The notes beneath the pieces were generated by a model. The model was given only the letters and a program-made list of their open reading frames with translations, was not told the DNA's origin and did no database searches. Shown here in pieces: positions 8,940 to 59,778 of a stretch of 64,000 bases of DNA; the first letter of the stretch is position 1, and every line of letters begins with the position of its first letter. A program made the position numbers and the translations under genes. This stretch comes from Eledone cirrhosa (lineage: Eukaryota): the NCBI GenBank assembly GCA_964016885.1, contig OZ024740.1:113956001-114020000 (forward strand), given 5' to 3'.

Positions 8940-11900
8940 CCCCGTGACCAAGAAATACCGGGATGGCGGCCGGCGGGGAATAGCCATGTCTCTAGGGGAG
9001 AACGACCCCTCTAGCCTTGGTTGACACTCGTTCTAGAAGTGGTAACACGAAAAGATTACCCCTTGGCGGATAAGGATAAAACGCGACAAAATAAAGTAGA
9101 TGTCTAATGATGAAATCTCATACCGGATCGGCCGTCACCCGGGTAAAAAAGGGCCGCGTCCCTCAGAGAGGAACCAGACTGGGGTCGAAAAATCAGCTAA
9201 TGGTTCAAACCTTCCCATCACTTCGGAGCTGGAGACCTCCCATAACCGGAATACTCCTACTGTTGGCCCTCCATGCTCACCACCAAGAAATCCAAAGAAA
9301 AAGAGAGAAAAATGGTCAAGGGAAGATAATAAAGAAGTCCTTGAGGCTTTCTACACTGCCATGTACTACCCATCAAATACATCGAATACAGAGCAAACAT
9401 ATATCAACTGAAAAAAGAAACATCCCGAAAACAGAGGCTATATTGACAGTAACAAACTAGCCAATATACGAAGAAATATTGTAAGAAAAAAGTTACTAAC
9501 TGATATAGAAATTGATCAGATCAAGCTAGTAGCACAAAGTCAGCGAAGGGAAAATGAAGCATGTGTCAGTGAAAACGAGGTAAACTGTAACACTTCGAAT
9601 CCCAGAGTTGGGGCGGAATCACTGGCAACAGAACAAATTAAAGAAAGGAGCGAAAAAGTGGAGGGAGTGCATGCTCAGGATGAAATTCCAAATGAAAATA
9701 ATGAGATCGTAAATGATAAAGAAATGAATGAAAATGAACTTGCCAACTTGAAGGATGAAATTATGATCGAATGGATGAAAATGAAAGAATCTGACATGGG
9801 GGAACGAGACACCCTCCCTAAGATCCAGAACTCCAAACAGAACCAAAAGATAATACACAAGACTAACATAATTCTCAAAAACATTATCATCACAAACAAA
9901 CTAAACATTACTGACTTAAATCATCTCTATTATGCATCGGCTAAAGTCACCACTCACTTATGTGGAGTGAAGATGAAAAAACAAAGGAATTCCCACAAGA
10001 AATCTACTTGGCAAGATAACATCAATCGCCAAATAAACCTTCTCCGATCTGAGATAGAAATTTTAACAAACTATAAAGTAGGTGAACATGTTAAACAAAC
10101 TAAACTTAGAAAATTGAAAAAAAAGTACAGTATAAGATCAACATGTGACATAGACATGCTGATAGAAACAATCAAGCAAAAAGTGTCGGCCAAAGCTGCT
10201 CGTATAAGGCGCTTTGAAAAACGATCTAGATTCTATAAGGACAATAATATGTTCAAAAACAACCAAAGAAACTTCTACAGAAAAATTGGTAAGTCAACAA
10301 TAACTGCTAAATCAATACCACCCAAGGAGGAAGTGCAAGAATTCTGGGAAAAGATCTGGGCCGAAGAAAAAGTTCATAACATACATGCCCCATGGATAGA
10401 CAGACAAATGAAAGAAAGAGCTCACCTTGAAGAACAAACATGGGAAAATATAACAGTTGAACAGCTGCGCTTGGCTCTAAGAAAAACCAGCAAATGGAAA
10501 TCCCCAGGAAAAGACAAAATACAAAACTTTTGGATAAATGCCTTCACAGAGTCTCATGAGCTGTTAGCCCAACTTTACAATGAAATAGTTAAGGAGCCAG
10601 AAAAGATACCATCATGGCTAGTTAACGGCATTACATTCCTGCTACCGAAGAATGATGAGACAAACAATCCCAAAAATTACAGACCGATAACCTGCTTGAC
10701 CACAATGTATAACATTTTAACATCAGTCCTAACTGAATACACATATGACCACCTGATAACAAATGACCTATTTCCCATTGAGCAGAAAGGGTGTAAACGA
10801 GGCTTATATGGCTGTAAGGATCAGCTTCTGGTTAACAAAATGATACTGGAAGATGGTCATAATAGACACAAAAATCTATCGATTGCTTGGATAGATTATA
10901 AAAAAGCATTTGATAGTTTGCCACACAGTTGGATTGAAAAATGTTTAGAGATTTTCAAAATATCCCCCGTTGTCAGAAGCTTTTTGTCATTCAGTATGAG
11001 GACATGGAGAACGACACTCCTTTTGAATAGTGAAACAAAATCACTGGAAGCTGGAGAAGTTAACATTAATTGTGGAATTTTTCAGGGTGACTCTTTATCA
11101 CCGCTTTTATTCTGCATCGCACTTATACCATTAAGTAAAATGCTCAATGAAACAAAACATGGATATAGAGTCTATGACAAAACCATTAATCACCTGTTCT
11201 ACATGGATGACCTGAAACTATTTGCAAAAAATGATGAACAATTGCAAGGGCTATTATCCACTGTGATGCAGTTCAGTGATGACATTAAAATGGAGTTTGG
11301 ACTGGATAAATGCGCCAAAGCAACGTTCACCAGAGGAAAGCTGCTGAAGAGTTCAGACATTAATCTTGATCGGGGGAACGTGATAAGAGAGCTTGATCAA
11401 GAACAAACTTACAAATATCTAGGTGTTTGTGAAGGAGACGGAATCAAGCACTCGACAATGAGGGAAAGGATAAGGAAGGAATGTTACCGCAGAGTCAGAG
11501 CAATCTTAAGAACGGAATTGAATGCAAGGAATAGGATCGATGCCATAAACACGCTTGCCATACCAGTAGTAACCTACAGTTACAATGTCATAAACTGGTC
11601 AAGCACAGAGATCCGTAGGCTCGATACAAAAATCCGAAAATTCTTAACCATGCACAGAATGCATCACCCTAAGGCAGACATAGATAGAATATATCTCCCT
11701 AGGAAAGAAGGAGGACGTGGGTTAATCCAGTTAGACATTGCGTTGAAAACTGCAACAATTGGATTATCCACATATCTAAGGGAATCACATGATTGGATGA
11801 TCAAACTCGTTTTGAAACACGAAAGCACCAAAAGATCATATTCCATTACAAAAGATGCACAAAGATACAGTAATGGACTACAAATTTCAGAAGTCCCATT

Positions 11901-12890
11901 TACTGCTGAAATGGAAAACACAGAAAAAGCAAAGCAGGTAAAAGTAACTGCAAAGAAAGAACTGCTACAGAAACTGGCTAAGAAATGGCAAGAAAAGCCT
12001 CTGTATGGAAAATACCCAGAGCGAGCTAACAATCCTGATGTTGACAAAACTTTAACCCATCAGTGGTTGGCATCCTCTGGACTGAAATCGGAGACTGAAG
12101 GACTGATTATATCCGCACAAGATCAGTGTCTGCCAACAAAAAATTACCAAGCCAACATAATAAAAAATGGGTGCAGCCCATTATGCCGTGTATGCAAAAA
12201 ACAACCAGAGACCATTGACCATATAATTTCAATGTGCAGTCCTATAGCTCCAACCGAATACCTAAACAGGCATGACAGAGCTGCACAATACATACATTGG
12301 ATAATGTGTAAGCATTTTGACCTGCCCCATCAAAAGAATTGGTGGGAGCATCAACCACCTCCCATACTTGAAAAAGATCACATCTCAATCTTGTGGAACT
12401 TTAGCATCCAAACAGACCGAAAAATAGATGCAAATAGACCTGATATAATATTGAAGGACTTTCAAAGGAGGGTATGCCTGCTAATTGATATGTCTGTTCC
12501 AATAGACAAGAATGTATCTATAAAAACATTTGAAAAATTGAGCAAGTATAAGGACCTGGAGATAGAAATTGGAAAAATGTGGAAATTGAGAACTAAAACA
12601 ATACCAGTGGTTGTAGGCGCTCTGGGAATGATACCTAAGGGGTCTAACGACTACTTATCGCAAATCCCAGGAAACCCGCGTATAGGAGAAATACAAAAGA
12701 TAGTACTAATGGGAACTGCCCATATACTAAGGAAGATCCTGTCAATATAAGTACATCACAAGTCTAAACACTAAGGATGCATGTGTGAATATGTGTGTTC
12801 TTTCTTGAACATGGCGGACCTTGTTGTCTCTTGAGGTCACTGGGTGTGACTTGGTGATAACTCGTATAAACATAAAGCAAGATAAATGCA

Positions 12891-13747: not shown

Positions 13748-14400
13748 ATGTATGTATGTATACGTACATACATATATGTATACAGACATACAATAGTATG
13801 TATATATATACATACATGCACACATATATATATATATATATATATGCACGTATCGGTTTACCGAACATTTATTATAATGGTCGGTTTGTTTGTTTGTAAA
13901 CAAACAAACAGCTCGAATTACTCCGTACAGTGTTTAGGCAACCACGTCACCCTTTTGTTCAACACTGACACATGAACGATGTACTAGTTTCATGCTTATT
14001 AGCTATCGTCAGCATCGTATACCTTCCTGCCAGATGGTTGAACGTCTGAAAGTATATACTTTCCTTATGCATATTAACGAATATAAAAGTATATTAAAGT
14101 ATATACCTTCAGACGTTCAACCATCTGGCAGGAAGGTATACGATTTTGACGATAGCTAATAAGCTTGAAACTAGTACAACGCTCCTGTGTCAGTGTTGAA
14201 CAAAAAGATGACGTGGTTGCCTAAACACTGTACGGCGTAATTCGGGCTGTTTGTTTGTTTACAAACGAACAAACCGAGCCTTATAATAAATGTTCGGTAA
14301 ACCGATACTTGCATATATATATGTGTGCATGTATGTATATATATACATACTACTGTACGTCTGTATACATATATGTATGTACGTATAAATACATACATAT
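13748..14400. repeat. Long inverted repeat (arms ~13748-14062 and ~14096-14400)
   Basis: Arms are reverse complements, and ORFs 13748+ and 14171- give near-identical peptides. Confidence 0.92.
13977..14017 (-). ncRNA. Minimal type-I hammerhead ribozyme motif
   Basis: Minus strand reads CGAUG-CUGACGA-uagcuaauaagcau-GAAA-CUAG-UA-CAUCG: 5-bp stem I and palindromic stem III ACUAGU. Confidence 0.75.
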
Positions 14401-46606: not shown

Positions 46607-46640
<34 letters not shown>

Positions 46641-46644
<4 letters not shown>

Positions 46645-47480
46645 ATACTTTGGGAGGGTCATGTTGCCAATAAGAAACACACGCACCAGTTGCTTTCAGT
46701 TCAATTTATTATAAATTTCCGGTTGGTTGGTTGGTTCCACAACCGGATGGTTGTTCATATATTGTCAAAGTTCTTTCGCCACACATAGGTTGACCTCTTC
46801 AGTGACTGAGGATTATTTTCTTTGTTTTGTGCCTCTCCTTTTTTCTGGGCTAAGCCATCTTGTTTTTGTGTGTGTTATGTGCTTAGTTTGCGCATGTGTT
46901 ACATCCGGTCGTCTGTGTGTTTTTATTTGTTTATTTATTTGTTTATTTACATGTTACTAGTTAGTTGTTTGTTCTATGTGTGTGTGTTTTCGTTTTGTCC
47001 TTAATTGTAAGTTGTGATGTTGCTATTCCATTCATGTTTTCTATTTAATTTTGGTTGGAGTTCATTTATGTTTATTGCCTCTGTGATTTGTCTAAACATT
47101 GCGTCTTTTCTGTGTATAGTTATAAATGTTATTTCTATGTTCTCTAATTTGCCCTTATGTGCTATTTTACTATGCTGGTGGAGTACTGATGAGTCTTTTC
47201 TATCTTGGAGTTCTCGCCAGTGTTCATTTAATCGTTCTCCTATTCTACGAGCTGTCTTACTTATGCACATTATATTCTTATCTTTACATTGTCCCTCAGT
47301 ACATCTTATGCTATATACTATGTTTCTAGTTTTACAGTTAATATGGGGGCTTAGTTTTCAGATTATGCATTTCCTATCTATAGAGGGAGGTGTTTGAAAA
47401 GCGTATGTATTACTAATAAGTGTTTTTATGGGGGTACCTGGTCTTTCCACTATCTTAATATTTAATTTAAGTTTATCTGT
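46641..47480 (-). mobile_element. 3' part of a Penelope-like element (Naiad-like): linker, GIY-YIG endonuclease and 3' pseudo-LTR
   Basis: Minus frame reads KIVERPGTPIKTLI..KCII*KLSPHINCKTRNIVYSIRC..C..MCISKTARRIGERLNEH..LHQH..H..RQITEAINI..LNRKHEW. Hammerhead downstream. Confidence 0.85.
46764..46806 (-). ncRNA. Hammerhead motif in the PLE 3' repeat
   Basis: GUCA-CUGAAGAG-GUCAac..gUGGC-GAAA-GaaC-UU-UGAC, on the same strand as the GIY-YIG ORF. Confidence 0.7.
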
Positions 47481-55801: not shown

Positions 55802-56403
55802 TGGTCAGGTCACCAGTTGGTGCTACTGGTAACATGTATCCCAGTACAACCTGTCTCATGGTCGGGTCGTTGGCGACTAAACTGGCAACCCCACCAAGGT
55901 TTCTTGGTGAGGAGGGTGACTTTGGACATCCTGCAGGACTAAAAACAAAACCTGGAAAAGGAGCTCTTAAGAGTCAATGGCCATCCAAAATCACCGGGAG
56001 AGATGACCCCTTAGCCTTTGTCAAGGCAGAATTCTAAGAGAAGGATAACTCTGATATAACGCCTGCAAACCTGATGGTATCCAATGATGTTGACTTGTTC
56101 TTCTTTTTGGTAAATATAATCTTGGTTAAGAGAGTGGGACTGGCTTTGTGCAGTGCCTTTGCTCACTATAAAAGTTTCACGGCACAGGCATTGCTTTATA
56201 TCTGGAGATCTCTCTGCACTTGTCGTCACATGGTACCATGGGCCCAGCACTATGCGTCAATAATTGTCACAAGTGTAGTGTTTGTACCAGAGTTTTCAAG
56301 TCGCTGGCTGGACTAAAAAGTCACACTTTCAGCGCATCTGTAGGGGTTCTCCTACATGGATATAAAGTAGTGGCCGTACTCGAAAACGAGTTAGCAGCCA
56401 CCA
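55802..56403 (+). mobile_element. RTE-derived non-autonomous element, family C (copy 2). Its 3' part recurs at 56597-56773 and 58245-58285
   Basis: Collinear with 32707-33318, and encodes the remnant CHKCSVCTRVFKSLAGLKSH. Confidence 0.88.
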
Positions 56404-56919
56404 TATGTGTGTATGTGTGTGTATATATATGTATATATATGTATGTGTGTATATATATGTGTATGTATATACGTATATGTGTATGTGTATGTATGTGTGT
56501 GTATATATACATGTATGTATGTGTATATGTATGTATATATGTGTGTATGTATGTGTACATGTATCTATGTATATATATATGTATGTATATATATTCTGGA
56601 GATCTCTCTGCACTTGTCATCACATGGTACCATGGGCCCAGCACTATCTGTCAATAATTGTCAAAGGTGTATTGTTTATACCAGAGTTTTCAAGTCGTTC
56701 AGCGCATCGGTAGGGGCTCTCCTACATGGATATAAAGTAGTGGCCGTACTCGAAAACAAGTTGGCAGCCACCATATATATATATATATATATATATTTCG
56801 TTTCTGAATTTGTTTAGCAAGATTCTTTATCTGAACACGTGTGTTGAAACCGATATTGTTATACTTTGGGAGGGTAATGTTGCCAATAAGAAACACACGC
56901 ACCATTGCTTTCACTTCAA

Positions 56920-57445
56920 TCTATATATATAAAACTGTGGTTGTCTGTCTGTCTATCGATTTTTGGCACACATCTCCTCTTAGAATCTCTCACGGAATTG
57001 CACCGAAATTGCTATACTTGTACATTGAGCCCTAGCGAAGACATCGGAAAAAAATATTTCAAATTGACCCACCCTATGTGACGAAATCGAATATAATGTA
57101 TCGATTTTTGAGCGTAAGTTATCAGTTATTTCCCTTTGTTCTGTTTACATTGAGCGTCTTACGTTGTTTTTCTCTGCGTTGCAGTGTTTATATTTTCGAT
57201 CTTTGTTAATAAATAACCAGTGCAGTTTTTATCCCCAACATCCTCTTTTGTTATAACATTCGGGTTATCGTTATGTTTTCTTAACTTGATAAGGCATATT
57301 GTTGGTTGAGGGAATATTAATCAAAAACACCACATGCAAGTCTGCACAGTAGACACTACAGTTTTTAAGCCAAGAAAGAAAATTAACATTGTAACTTTAA
57401 CACAGCTACTGAGCGACCCCGAGCAACGCCGGGCTTTACTGCTAG
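56920..57445 (+). mobile_element. Non-autonomous Helitron
   Basis: A|TC 5' end, (TCTG)n, subterminal hairpin ccccgagcaacgccggg, CTAG|T 3' end and no TSD. Confidence 0.85.
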
Positions 57446-57519
57446 TTTATTATAATAAATTGAAGTGAAAGCAACAGGTGCGTGTGTTTCTTATTGGCAA
57501 GATGACCCTCCTAAAGTAT

Positions 57520-57571
<52 letters not shown>

Positions 57572-57576
57572 TTATA

Positions 57577-57756
57577 TATTTATTAAAATAACAGATTAAA
57601 TTTAAGCAAAGAATCGCTGCTTTCATCCTTAACGGGATCTTCTGAAATAAAAAAAAAATCAATCTGTTAACGCAGAAGTAAATATTTCGATAAATGTTAA
57701 AAGGGTGAAAGCAGCGATTCTTTGCTTAAACTTTAATCTGTTATTTTAATAAATAT
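57577..57756. repeat. Inverted repeat homologous to ~26770-26888
   Basis: aagggtgaaagc(a/t)gcgattctttgcttaaactttaatctgttattttaataaata occurs at both loci and in both orientations here. Confidence 0.85.
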
Positions 57757-58164: not shown

Positions 58165-58196
<32 letters not shown>

Positions 58197-58302
58197 TGTT
58201 ATACTTTGGGAGGGTCATGTTGCCAATAAGAAACACACGCACCAGGGGTTCTCCTACATGGATATAAAGTAGTGGCCGTACTCGAAAACAAGTTGGCAGC
58301 CA

Positions 58303-58360
<58 letters not shown>

Positions 58361-58570
58361 TTCATTTTCTGAATTTGTTTAGCAAGATTCTTTATCTGAA
58401 AACGTGTGTTGAAACCGATATTGTTATATTTTGGGAGGGTCATGTTGCCAATAAGAAACACACACACCAGTTGCTTTCACTTCAATTTATCATAATAAAT
58501 TTACAAATTTAGGAATTTATAAATTTCCGGTTATTGGTTGGTTCCACAACCAGATGGTTGTTTATATATT

Positions 58571-58613
58571 GTCAAAGTTCTTTCGTCACACCTTCTGTGA
58601 CCTCTTCAGTGAC
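58571..58613 (-). ncRNA. Hammerhead motif (left arm)
   Basis: Exact reverse complement of 58733-58775. Confidence 0.72.
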
Positions 58614-58732
58614 TGGGGATTCTTTTCTTTGTTTTTTTGTGCCTCTCCTTTGTTCTGTCCTACGCCATCTTGTTTTTGATGGCGTAGAACAGAACAAAGG
58701 AGAGGCACAAAAAACAAAGAAAAGAATCCCCA

Positions 58733-58775
58733 GTCACTGAAGAGGTCACAGAAGGTGTGACGAAAGAACTTTGAC
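58733..58775 (+). ncRNA. Hammerhead motif (right arm)
   Basis: GUCA-CUGAAGAG-GUCACA gaagg UGUGAC-GAAA-GaaC-UU-UGAC. Confidence 0.72.
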
Positions 58776-59176
58776 AATATATAAACAACCATCTGGTTGT
58801 GGAACCAACCAATAACCGGAAATTTATAAATTCCTAAATTTGTAAATTTATTATAATAAATTGAAGTGAAAGCAACTGGTGTGTGTGTTTCTTATTGGCA
58901 ACATGACCCTCCCAAAATATAACAATATCCGTTTCAACACACGTTTTCAGATAAAGAATCTTGCTAAACAAATTCAGAAACGAAATATATATATATATAT
59001 GTATATACATATGTATATATATATGTATATATATATATATGTATGTTGTTCTACTTGGGGAGGGTCATATTTGTGTAATATTGCCAGAATTAATAACAGA
59101 ACACACTCACTGTTTGGTTGGTTTTCGCTTTTCGCTTCTGTGTCTTTTATATCCGTTATATATGTATGTATATATG

Positions 59177-59778
59177 AATGTAATCTGAGTTTTTCTAATA
59201 TTAATAATTGTTTCTACTTTTGGCACAAGGGCAGCAATTACCCAGTACATTACTAGTACTTTATTTTATCGACCCCGTAAGGATGAAAGGCAAAGTTAAC
59301 CCCGGCGGAATTTGAACTCAGATCATAAAGGGACGTAACTCTATGCTTCAAAGCATTGCGTTCGACTCTCTACCGATACTGCCAAATATTAATAATAACA
59401 TTCGATTCGTTTGCAATTATGCAAACAAGCCTCAATGTTATAGCCATGTGAGTAGAATGTACCCCTCATTCTTGCCCTTGTGTTGGCATGTGAACACAAG
59501 AGCAAGAATGGAGGGTTCATTCTACTGATATGGCTATAAAATTGAGGCTTGTTTGCATAATTGCAAACAAGTCGAATGTTATCGGTAGGGGGTCGGACGC
59601 CATGCTTTCCAGCATAGTTACGTCCCTTTACGATCTGAGTTCAATCCCACCGAGGTTGACTTTGCCTTTCATCCTTACGGGGTCGATAACATAAAGTACC
59701 AGTAATGCACTGGGTAATTGCCGGCCTTGTGCCTAAAGTAGAAACAATTATTAATATTCGAAAAACTCAGATTACATT
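59177..59778. repeat. Palindrome of two head-to-head family A SINEs around a ~185-bp fold-back core (59397-59580)
   Basis: SINE (-) at ~59190-59388 and SINE (+) at 59581-59752. The core is self-complementary around ~59490. Confidence 0.88.

What the first reader, a model, noticed from the sequence alone, without database searches (positions are those of the whole stretch)
58360..58987. ~630-bp PLE-derived palindrome with a hammerhead ribozyme motif on each strand
Seen: ~310-bp arms with only a few mismatches, an 8-nt loop, (TA)n on both flanks and identical hammerhead motifs at 58571-58613 (-) and 58733-58775 (+). Stem II differs from the 46764 copy but still pairs. Known: Penelope-like elements carry minimal hammerheads in their pseudo-LTRs and often form inverted ends. 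Inference: this is an ORF-less fold-back unit. A transcript from either strand would be a rod-like RNA holding one ribozyme and its antisense, so it could be a non-autonomous mobile unit, an siRNA source or a self-blocking ribozyme.
Basis: partly seen in the sequence, partly recalled or inferred. Interest (0 to 1): 0.75.

Follow-up and report, generated by a model that had tools for sequence, protein, structure and literature searches.

The report
Double-primed Penelope stump palindrome
This 630-base mirror-image repeat is one of hundreds of short head-to-head stumps of a very abundant Penelope-like jumping gene, likely built anew at each landing by copying the start of one RNA onto both cut DNA ends; the layout is already known, but the copies give a testable clue to how these elements insert.

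Summary
The palindrome is real: 310-bp arms, 5 differences, 8-nt loop, (TA)n flanks, one minimal hammerhead motif per strand. Each arm is the terminal pseudo-LTR plus 60-bp tail of an abundant 4.08-kb Penelope-like element (Neptune-like motifs). At least 673 head-to-head junctions lie in the same zone genome-wide, and 53 of 55 sampled spacers differ. The 12 copies with this exact apex form no clade, so it is not a self-copying unit. Of pairs with both ends intact, 40 of 40 and 25 of 26 carry exactly one tail, as often on the shorter arm as the longer. Arms share haplotype in 35 of 37. Ends pile up in a 19-nt zone with a cap-like G. Best reading: both cut target strands prime on one capped RNA at its two start sites, both cDNAs run off the 5' end, and they are joined. 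This copy is a rare two-tail variant. The ribozyme looks like a passenger; no activity was shown. Inverted ends, tails and opposite-strand hammerheads are published; I found no paper linking them by double priming. This scan noted the same reading before, in this genome and others.

The parts
58305..58360 (.). (TA)n target, left flank; it follows the 3' end of another repeat at 58244-58304
   Evidence: sequence
58361..58678 (-). Left arm: element end (pseudo-LTR plus tail), sense on the minus strand; the loop bases 58670-58678 are still parent sequence
   Evidence: read-through parent copies carry the same bases
58361..58417 (-). Tail of the left arm: about 60 bp of ORF-start sequence between the two fixed 3' ends
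58571..58613 (-). Minimal type I hammerhead motif, left arm
58663..58672 (-). AAGATGGCG word (YY1-like, label recalled, not tested) inside the zone where 5' ends pile up; predicted transcription start region
58670..58678 (.). Apex: 8-nt loop with a 1-nt G microhomology joint; the exact 28-mer occurs at 12 places genome-wide
58678..58988 (+). Right arm: element end (pseudo-LTR plus tail), sense on the plus strand
58733..58775 (+). Minimal type I hammerhead motif, right arm; predicted cut between 58771 and 58772
58929..58988 (+). Tail of the right arm (a second tail is rare in this family)
58989..59045 (.). (TA)n target, right flank
46637..47357 (-). 5'-truncated copy of the parent element: end of the GIY-YIG endonuclease frame (47001-47357), 3' UTR, pseudo-LTR with a decayed hammerhead (46764-46806), no tail

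Best explanation
The palindrome is two ends of an abundant Penelope-like retrotransposon joined head to head, likely made in one insertion in which both cut strands of a (TA)n target each primed a DNA copy of the same RNA. Shown: each arm is the element's last 250 or 310 bp; family insertions almost always pair one tailed with one tail-less end; both end points read AATAT in the parent, 60 nt apart; 5' ends pile up 6-24 nt before a fixed anchor. Inferred: the endonuclease cuts both strands of (TA)n; the two 3' ends anneal at the two AAUAU sites; when priming happens in the first pseudo-LTR of the transcript, both cDNAs run off the capped 5' end after 260-320 nt; their 3' ends are joined bluntly or by 1-2 nt microhomology and second strands are filled in. 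The product has no ORF and is likely a dead-end by-product. The hammerhead is copied along and would be masked in any read-through hairpin. This copy has two tails, so here both primings likely used the outer site, or one arm was later recopied from the other.
For: Junction counts by spacer: 433 (10-40 nt), 212 (41-71), 28 (72-102); 69 at a mid-arm control. 5' ends in 90 position-ordered loci: 18 of 82 uncensored at -24..-6; 47 per 100 nt in that bin against 0-13 upstream. One-tail rule: 40 of 40 intact among 55 apex-picked loci, 15 had a broken arm; 25 of 26 intact among 34 adjacent pairs, one locus shared with the first set; 11 of 11 re-mapped longer pairs. Tail on the shorter arm in 9 of 17 and 15 of 25: a fold-back of one cDNA cannot give the copied arm a tail its template lacks. 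Arms share haplotype in 35 of 37; shuffles make 25 of 37 discordant. Arm starts within 1 nt in 15 of 55 (shuffle mean 8.2, p 0.009). 16 of 19 blunt joints read G then A and 10 are perfect palindromes around one G:C pair (simulated p <= 6e-4 and <= 1e-7); untemplated G is a cap mark in LINE-1 (PMC4859970, passages). In vitro a Poseidon PLE cuts and extends both strands, starts at two sites bounding the tail, is predicted to dimerise and does not need its hammerhead (PMC11167929, parts 1-2 of 4).
Against: All steps are read from finished insertions; no RNA, intermediate or enzyme was seen. The central G can also be a templated C of the other arm. This copy breaks the rule: two tails, and a microhomology apex without a cap-like G. 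2 of 37 pairs have discordant arms, so some insertions use two RNAs. Very short palindromes near the priming site are also common (360), and a second end cluster lies at +41..+67 (10 of 82), so run-off at the RNA start is not the only route. Anchor 14-mers differ in how well they are conserved, so the counts compare only roughly. PMC11167929 reports priming without homology to the cut DNA, whereas I infer ATAT pairing here. Many arms show no partner inside the fetched stretch.
Confidence: 0.72

Rival explanations
1. Fold-back or self-priming: one cDNA, or an antisense transcript, folds on itself near the pseudo-LTR start and copies itself; endonuclease trimming then sets the ends.
For: Proposed for head-to-head PLE junctions (PMC3846280, passages); the tail was ascribed to endonuclease resolution (PMC8557442, passages). 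Arms are usually of one haplotype. This copy's looped apex, two tails and private variants on both arms fit a fold-back.
Against: The tail is on the shorter arm about half the time; 10 of 55 junctions have no loop to prime from; 2 of 37 pairs have arms of different haplotype.
Confidence: 0.13
2. The palindrome is a self-propagating non-autonomous element (MITE-like or retrozyme-like) with its own RNA.
For: The exact apex is at 12 dispersed places; all 40 scored top DNA matches of 3,571 candidates are whole palindromes of 540-630 bp.
Against: 53 of 55 spacers differ; same-apex copies are scattered on the tree and carry the tail left, right or on both sides; sizes run on to kilobases; no head-to-tail array as in retrozymes.
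Confidence: 0.05
3. For this locus only: an ordinary one-tail insertion was later symmetrised by arm-to-arm gene conversion or hairpin repair (compatible with the best explanation for the first step).
For: Both arms share variants found in 0-2 of 261 other fetched loci; two-tail copies are rare (0 of 40, 1 of 26).
Against: Two other two-tail palindromes share 0 and 1 non-majority variants between arms, so two tails arise without conversion; a rare diverged source RNA would also explain the shared variants.
Confidence: 0.3
4. Assembly or library fold-back artefact.
For: Palindromes are a known chimera type (general knowledge); no read record bridged this apex.
Against: Arms differ at 5 places and flanks beyond (TA)n are not mirrored; hundreds of family junctions have element-defined, asymmetric ends.
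Confidence: 0.02

Closest known systems
Insertion architecture of endonuclease-positive Penelope-like elements (PMC8557442, passages; PMC3846280, passages; PMC2377424, passages)
   Same: Inverted 5'-truncated copy head to head, tail at one end only, tail made of ORF-start sequence, tandem units, (TA)n targets, internal promoter in the pseudo-LTR.
   Different: Here both halves are cut down to the pseudo-LTR, the tail is 60 bp rather than 30-40, hundreds of junctions share one narrow zone, and this copy has two tails.
Minimal hammerheads of metazoan PLEs (Cervera and de la Pena 2014, PMC4209133, parts 1-2 of 4 read)
   Same: Short helix I, long helix II, extra base between 9 and 10.1, G10.1-C11.1, tiny helix III; the paper already reports pairs on opposite strands 100-700 bp apart in Schistosoma mansoni.
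   Different: Loop 3 is AA, not self-complementary; position 17 is U in 206 of 251 copies (a poor cleavage triplet by recall) and A in 42.
Poseidon element PAc in vitro (Frangieh et al. 2024, PMC11167929, parts 1-2 of 4 plus term search)
   Same: Two internal start sites bound the tail; both target strands are cut and extended; hammerhead dispensable.
   Different: Other clade; the text read does not connect the two sites to inverted insertions (its only 'inverted' is a primer block) and reports priming without homology.
LINE-1 twin priming (cited in PMC4859970, passages)
   Same: Both target strands prime on one RNA and give an inversion.
   Different: In LINE-1 it is occasional and the second primer lands internally (recalled), so the two pieces do not duplicate each other; here both primers use fixed neighbouring sites and give a palindrome.
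Non-LTR retrozymes (bioRxiv 10.64898/2026.07.22.740005, part 1 of 5 plus term search)
   Same: Short, ORF-less, type I hammerhead, related to PLE pseudo-LTRs.
   Different: Defined by head-to-tail tandem units; this is head to head with one motif per strand.

Membership tests
Endonuclease-positive Penelope-like element (parent) | One ORF with reverse transcriptase and C-terminal GIY-YIG endonuclease | tested here: met
   Natural copies L123 and L125 translate to RT motifs followed by a GIY-YIG-like end with two internal Cys (motifs read by eye). Pfam gave only RVT_1 below cut-off (E 6e-4) and no GIY-YIG hit.
Endonuclease-positive Penelope-like element (parent) | Tandem units forming pseudo-LTRs, inverted 5' copy, optional tail | tested here: met
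   4,083-bp tandem period in L125; inverted partners and tails.
Neptune clade | CX2-5CxxC linker before the endonuclease; microsatellite targeting | tested here: met
   CX4CX2C present; (TA)n at the ends. Naiads share the linker but have the endonuclease in front.
Neptune clade | RT groups with Neptune references in a tree | not tested
   No reference set held; Nematis not excluded.
PLE minimal hammerhead | Core CUGANGA/GAAA/NUH, helix I 4-5 bp, long helix II, extra base after A9, G10.1-C11.1 | tested here: met
   core intact in 221 of 252 copies.
PLE minimal hammerhead | Palindromic 15.2-16.2 and loop 3 for dimer folding | tested here: inconclusive
   G-C closes, but the AA loop gives +1.4 kcal/mol for the inter-strand duplex; the GA subfamily gives -1.7.
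PLE minimal hammerhead | Self-cleavage | not testable with these tools
   No assay; no pile-up of insertion ends at the predicted cut.
Non-autonomous element (MITE or retrozyme) | Copies descend from a master with fixed internal structure, or form head-to-tail arrays | tested here: not met
   53 of 55 distinct spacers; same-apex copies not a clade.

The most novel reading that the evidence does not exclude
Penelope-like elements insert as a rule by double priming: a dimer holds one capped sense RNA and starts one cDNA at each of two fixed sites from each cut target strand. Inverted ends, the one-sided tail and hundreds of ORF-less 550-630-bp hairpins per genome then all follow from one reaction. 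The hairpins record the RNA start and could feed long double-stranded RNA against the parent element.
Probability: 0.55. Interest if true: 0.65.

Novelty: new member of a known kind. Interest (0 to 1): 0.42.

Why it matters
As an object it is an ordinary product of a known class. As a population it bears on a question that PMC8557442 names as open: how these elements form tandem and inverted insertions. The one-tail rule, the tail's independence of arm length, shared haplotypes and cap-like G argue for a sense, capped template primed twice, against the published antisense self-priming idea. That can be tested in the existing in vitro system. It also warns against cataloguing such palindromes as MITEs, retrozymes or microRNA hairpins.

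Tried and rejected
Rfam scan: only sub-threshold microRNA-hairpin matches, no hammerhead in the listed rows; the motif was judged by hand against PMC4209133. Sequencing runs: no RNA holder listed. Laying contigs and RAD-seq reads showed the family at high depth but no listed record spanning the stretch or bridging the apex; not used as evidence either way. Hammerhead-cut footprint: 16 pattern hits at the cut against 9 at a +2 control; of 10 fetched, 8 were small deletions and 2 true joints; 2 of 82 ends start at the cut; inconclusive. Selection on the ribozyme among copies: rare-allele rate in the core 1.3%, flanks 0.7-1.4%, no double changes; subfamily differences inside the motif fall only in loop 2, loop 3 and position 17, weak support. 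Folding z-score of the motif -1.05, uninformative. Arm-to-arm against nearest-neighbour distance in the first, query-biased set was not discriminating (5 of 41) and was replaced. Apex calling failed for L011 and L012; six partial loci were dropped. Earlier findings by sequence: none. Target-site duplications cannot be read inside (TA)n. Paper searches for a double-priming model of PLE inversions listed none; subscription papers are not covered, and supplements of PMC11167929 and PMC8557442 were not read and may bear on this.

Full report
Observation. The palindrome is there as described: arms 58361-58669 and 58678-58988, five differences, loop TTGTTTTT, (TA)n on both sides, identical hammerhead motifs at 58571-58613 (-) and 58733-58775 (+). 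The motif has the anatomy of the minimal PLE hammerheads in PMC4209133 (parts 1-2 of 4): 4-bp helix I, 6-bp helix II, an extra base after A9, 2-bp helix III. That paper already notes such motifs in pairs on opposite strands 100-700 bp apart. The stem II difference from the 46764 copy is private decay of that copy, not covariation.

Parent. The genome is 3.0 Gb. The endonuclease frame at 47001-47357 has 31,477 first-look candidates, 150 scored at 84-100% identity. A 22-mer of the arm has 10,373 exact hits and a 14-mer of the ribozyme 12,627, control 16. [quoted passage not shown] That is Neptune-like by the definitions in PMC8557442 (passages); no tree was built and Pfam support is below cut-off. 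Each arm equals the unit's pseudo-LTR and tail. The tail is the first part of the ORF, and both end points read AATAT in the parent, 60 nt apart.

Not one unit but many events. The exact apex occurs 12 times and all 40 scored top DNA matches are whole palindromes. But head-to-head junctions at the same anchor number 433, 212 and 28 for spacers of 10-40, 41-71 and 72-102 nt, and 53 of 55 fetched spacers differ. Eleven same-apex right arms are 6.6% apart, against 6.3% to 22 others, and scatter on the tree; their tail lies left, right or on both sides. Among the first 100 listed anchors, 13 neighbouring pairs within 6 kb are head to head, 1 tail to tail and 1 direct, at 45 to 5,203 bp. The palindrome is the short end of the family's normal insertion form.

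How the two arms arise. Of 55 apex-picked loci, 40 have both outer ends intact, and all 40 pair one tailed with one tail-less arm; none reads on into the ORF. In 90 position-ordered loci, 34 adjacent pairs gave 25 one-tail, 1 two-tail, 0 no-tail and 8 with a broken or cut-off arm (one locus shared with the first set). The tail is on the shorter arm in 15 of 25 there and in 9 of 17 simple apex junctions. A single cDNA folding back could not give its copy a tail it lacks, so two primings are the simpler reading. Arms agree at 13 diagnostic sites (at most 2 differences) in 35 of 37 pairs, while shuffles make 25 of 37 discordant; two pairs differ at 5 sites, so a minority used two templates (test prompted by note e1-9536500).

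Why the apex is here. In the position-ordered sample 18 of 82 uncensored 5' ends fall 6-24 nt before the anchor; 14 more arms ran past the fetched stretch. A mid-arm control gives 69 junctions. A control next to the priming site gives 360, so early stalling is also common. Arm starts lie within 1 nt of each other in 15 of 55 (p 0.009). Of 19 blunt joints 16 read G then A and 10 are perfect palindromes around one G:C pair, far above simulation. Untemplated G at 5' ends is taken as a copied cap in LINE-1 (PMC4859970, passages), and Penelope has an internal promoter (PMC2377424, passages). I infer that this zone is the capped RNA start. The G can also be read as the other arm's templated C, and the YY1 label for the AAGATGGCG word is recalled.

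Mechanism. Inferred: both strands of (TA)n are cut; each 3' end primes at one AAUAU site of one RNA; in the transcript's first pseudo-LTR both cDNAs run off after 260-320 nt and are joined. PMC11167929 (parts 1-2 of 4 and a term search) shows both-strand cutting and extension, two start sites bounding the tail, a predicted dimer and a dispensable, protein-assisted hammerhead, but the text I read does not tie this to inverted insertions. PMC3846280 (passages) explains them by self-priming on an antisense template; the tail-side data and loop-less junctions argue against that as the general route.

This copy. It has two tails, like only L015 and L017 among the top matches to it and L214 in the unbiased set. 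Its apex is a 1-nt microhomology joint. Its arms share variants seen in 0-2 of 261 other loci; these are mixed substitutions, not a run of A-to-G changes. Double priming at the outer site from a rare source, or later arm-to-arm copying, both remain open.

Ribozyme and RNA. In the full hairpin helix II is abolished, in a single arm it forms, so self-blocking is a sound prediction if the locus is transcribed. Nothing here shows transcription or cleavage, and insertion ends do not pile up at the cut.

Verdict. Real, not an artefact; a new member of a known kind. I wrote the double-priming reading before seeing earlier notes; searches then showed that this scan has reached it for other genomes and, for this family's RNA start, in this one. 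Those notes are unchecked and are not counted as support. Interest 0.42: ordinary object, useful mechanistic record.

Noticed in passing
window 56801-56933 and 57446-57527: A tailed arm (-) and a tail-less arm (+) of the same family face outward around 510 bp of other sequence; probably one more one-tail insertion, interrupted.
   Followed up: partly
window 56342-56401, 56712-56773, 58244-58304: 3' end of another repeat (zinc-finger-like frame ending in (TA)n; RTE-like by recall). Two of its TA tails hold Penelope ends, and 56712-56933 resembles 58244-58499 (83%), either a local duplication or repeated targeting.
   Followed up: partly
window 58193-58245: A 53-bp tail-less arm of the family is joined directly to that other repeat's 3' end.
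   Followed up: no
L092, L093, L097, L098, L111, L208, L230, L231: Second cluster of 5' ends at +41..+67, at the 5' half of the hammerhead; a possible splice acceptor (CCCCAG) lies there, as the D. virilis intron end maps to helix I in PMC4209133.
   Followed up: no
L075 (= L117, L122:5535-6091): Palindrome whose arms carry two different clean haplotypes, pointing to two template RNAs.
   Followed up: partly
window 57597-57734, 59190-59770, 13813-14345: Other fold-back repeats of unrelated sequence near the finding and elsewhere in the window.
   Followed up: no
L125, L123, L139: The parent ORF has a long Asn/Thr/His-rich stretch before the RT, recalling the N-rich inserts of PMC3846280.
   Followed up: no
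window 9412-12750: An uninterrupted 1,112-aa reverse transcriptase frame of another retroelement family.
   Followed up: no
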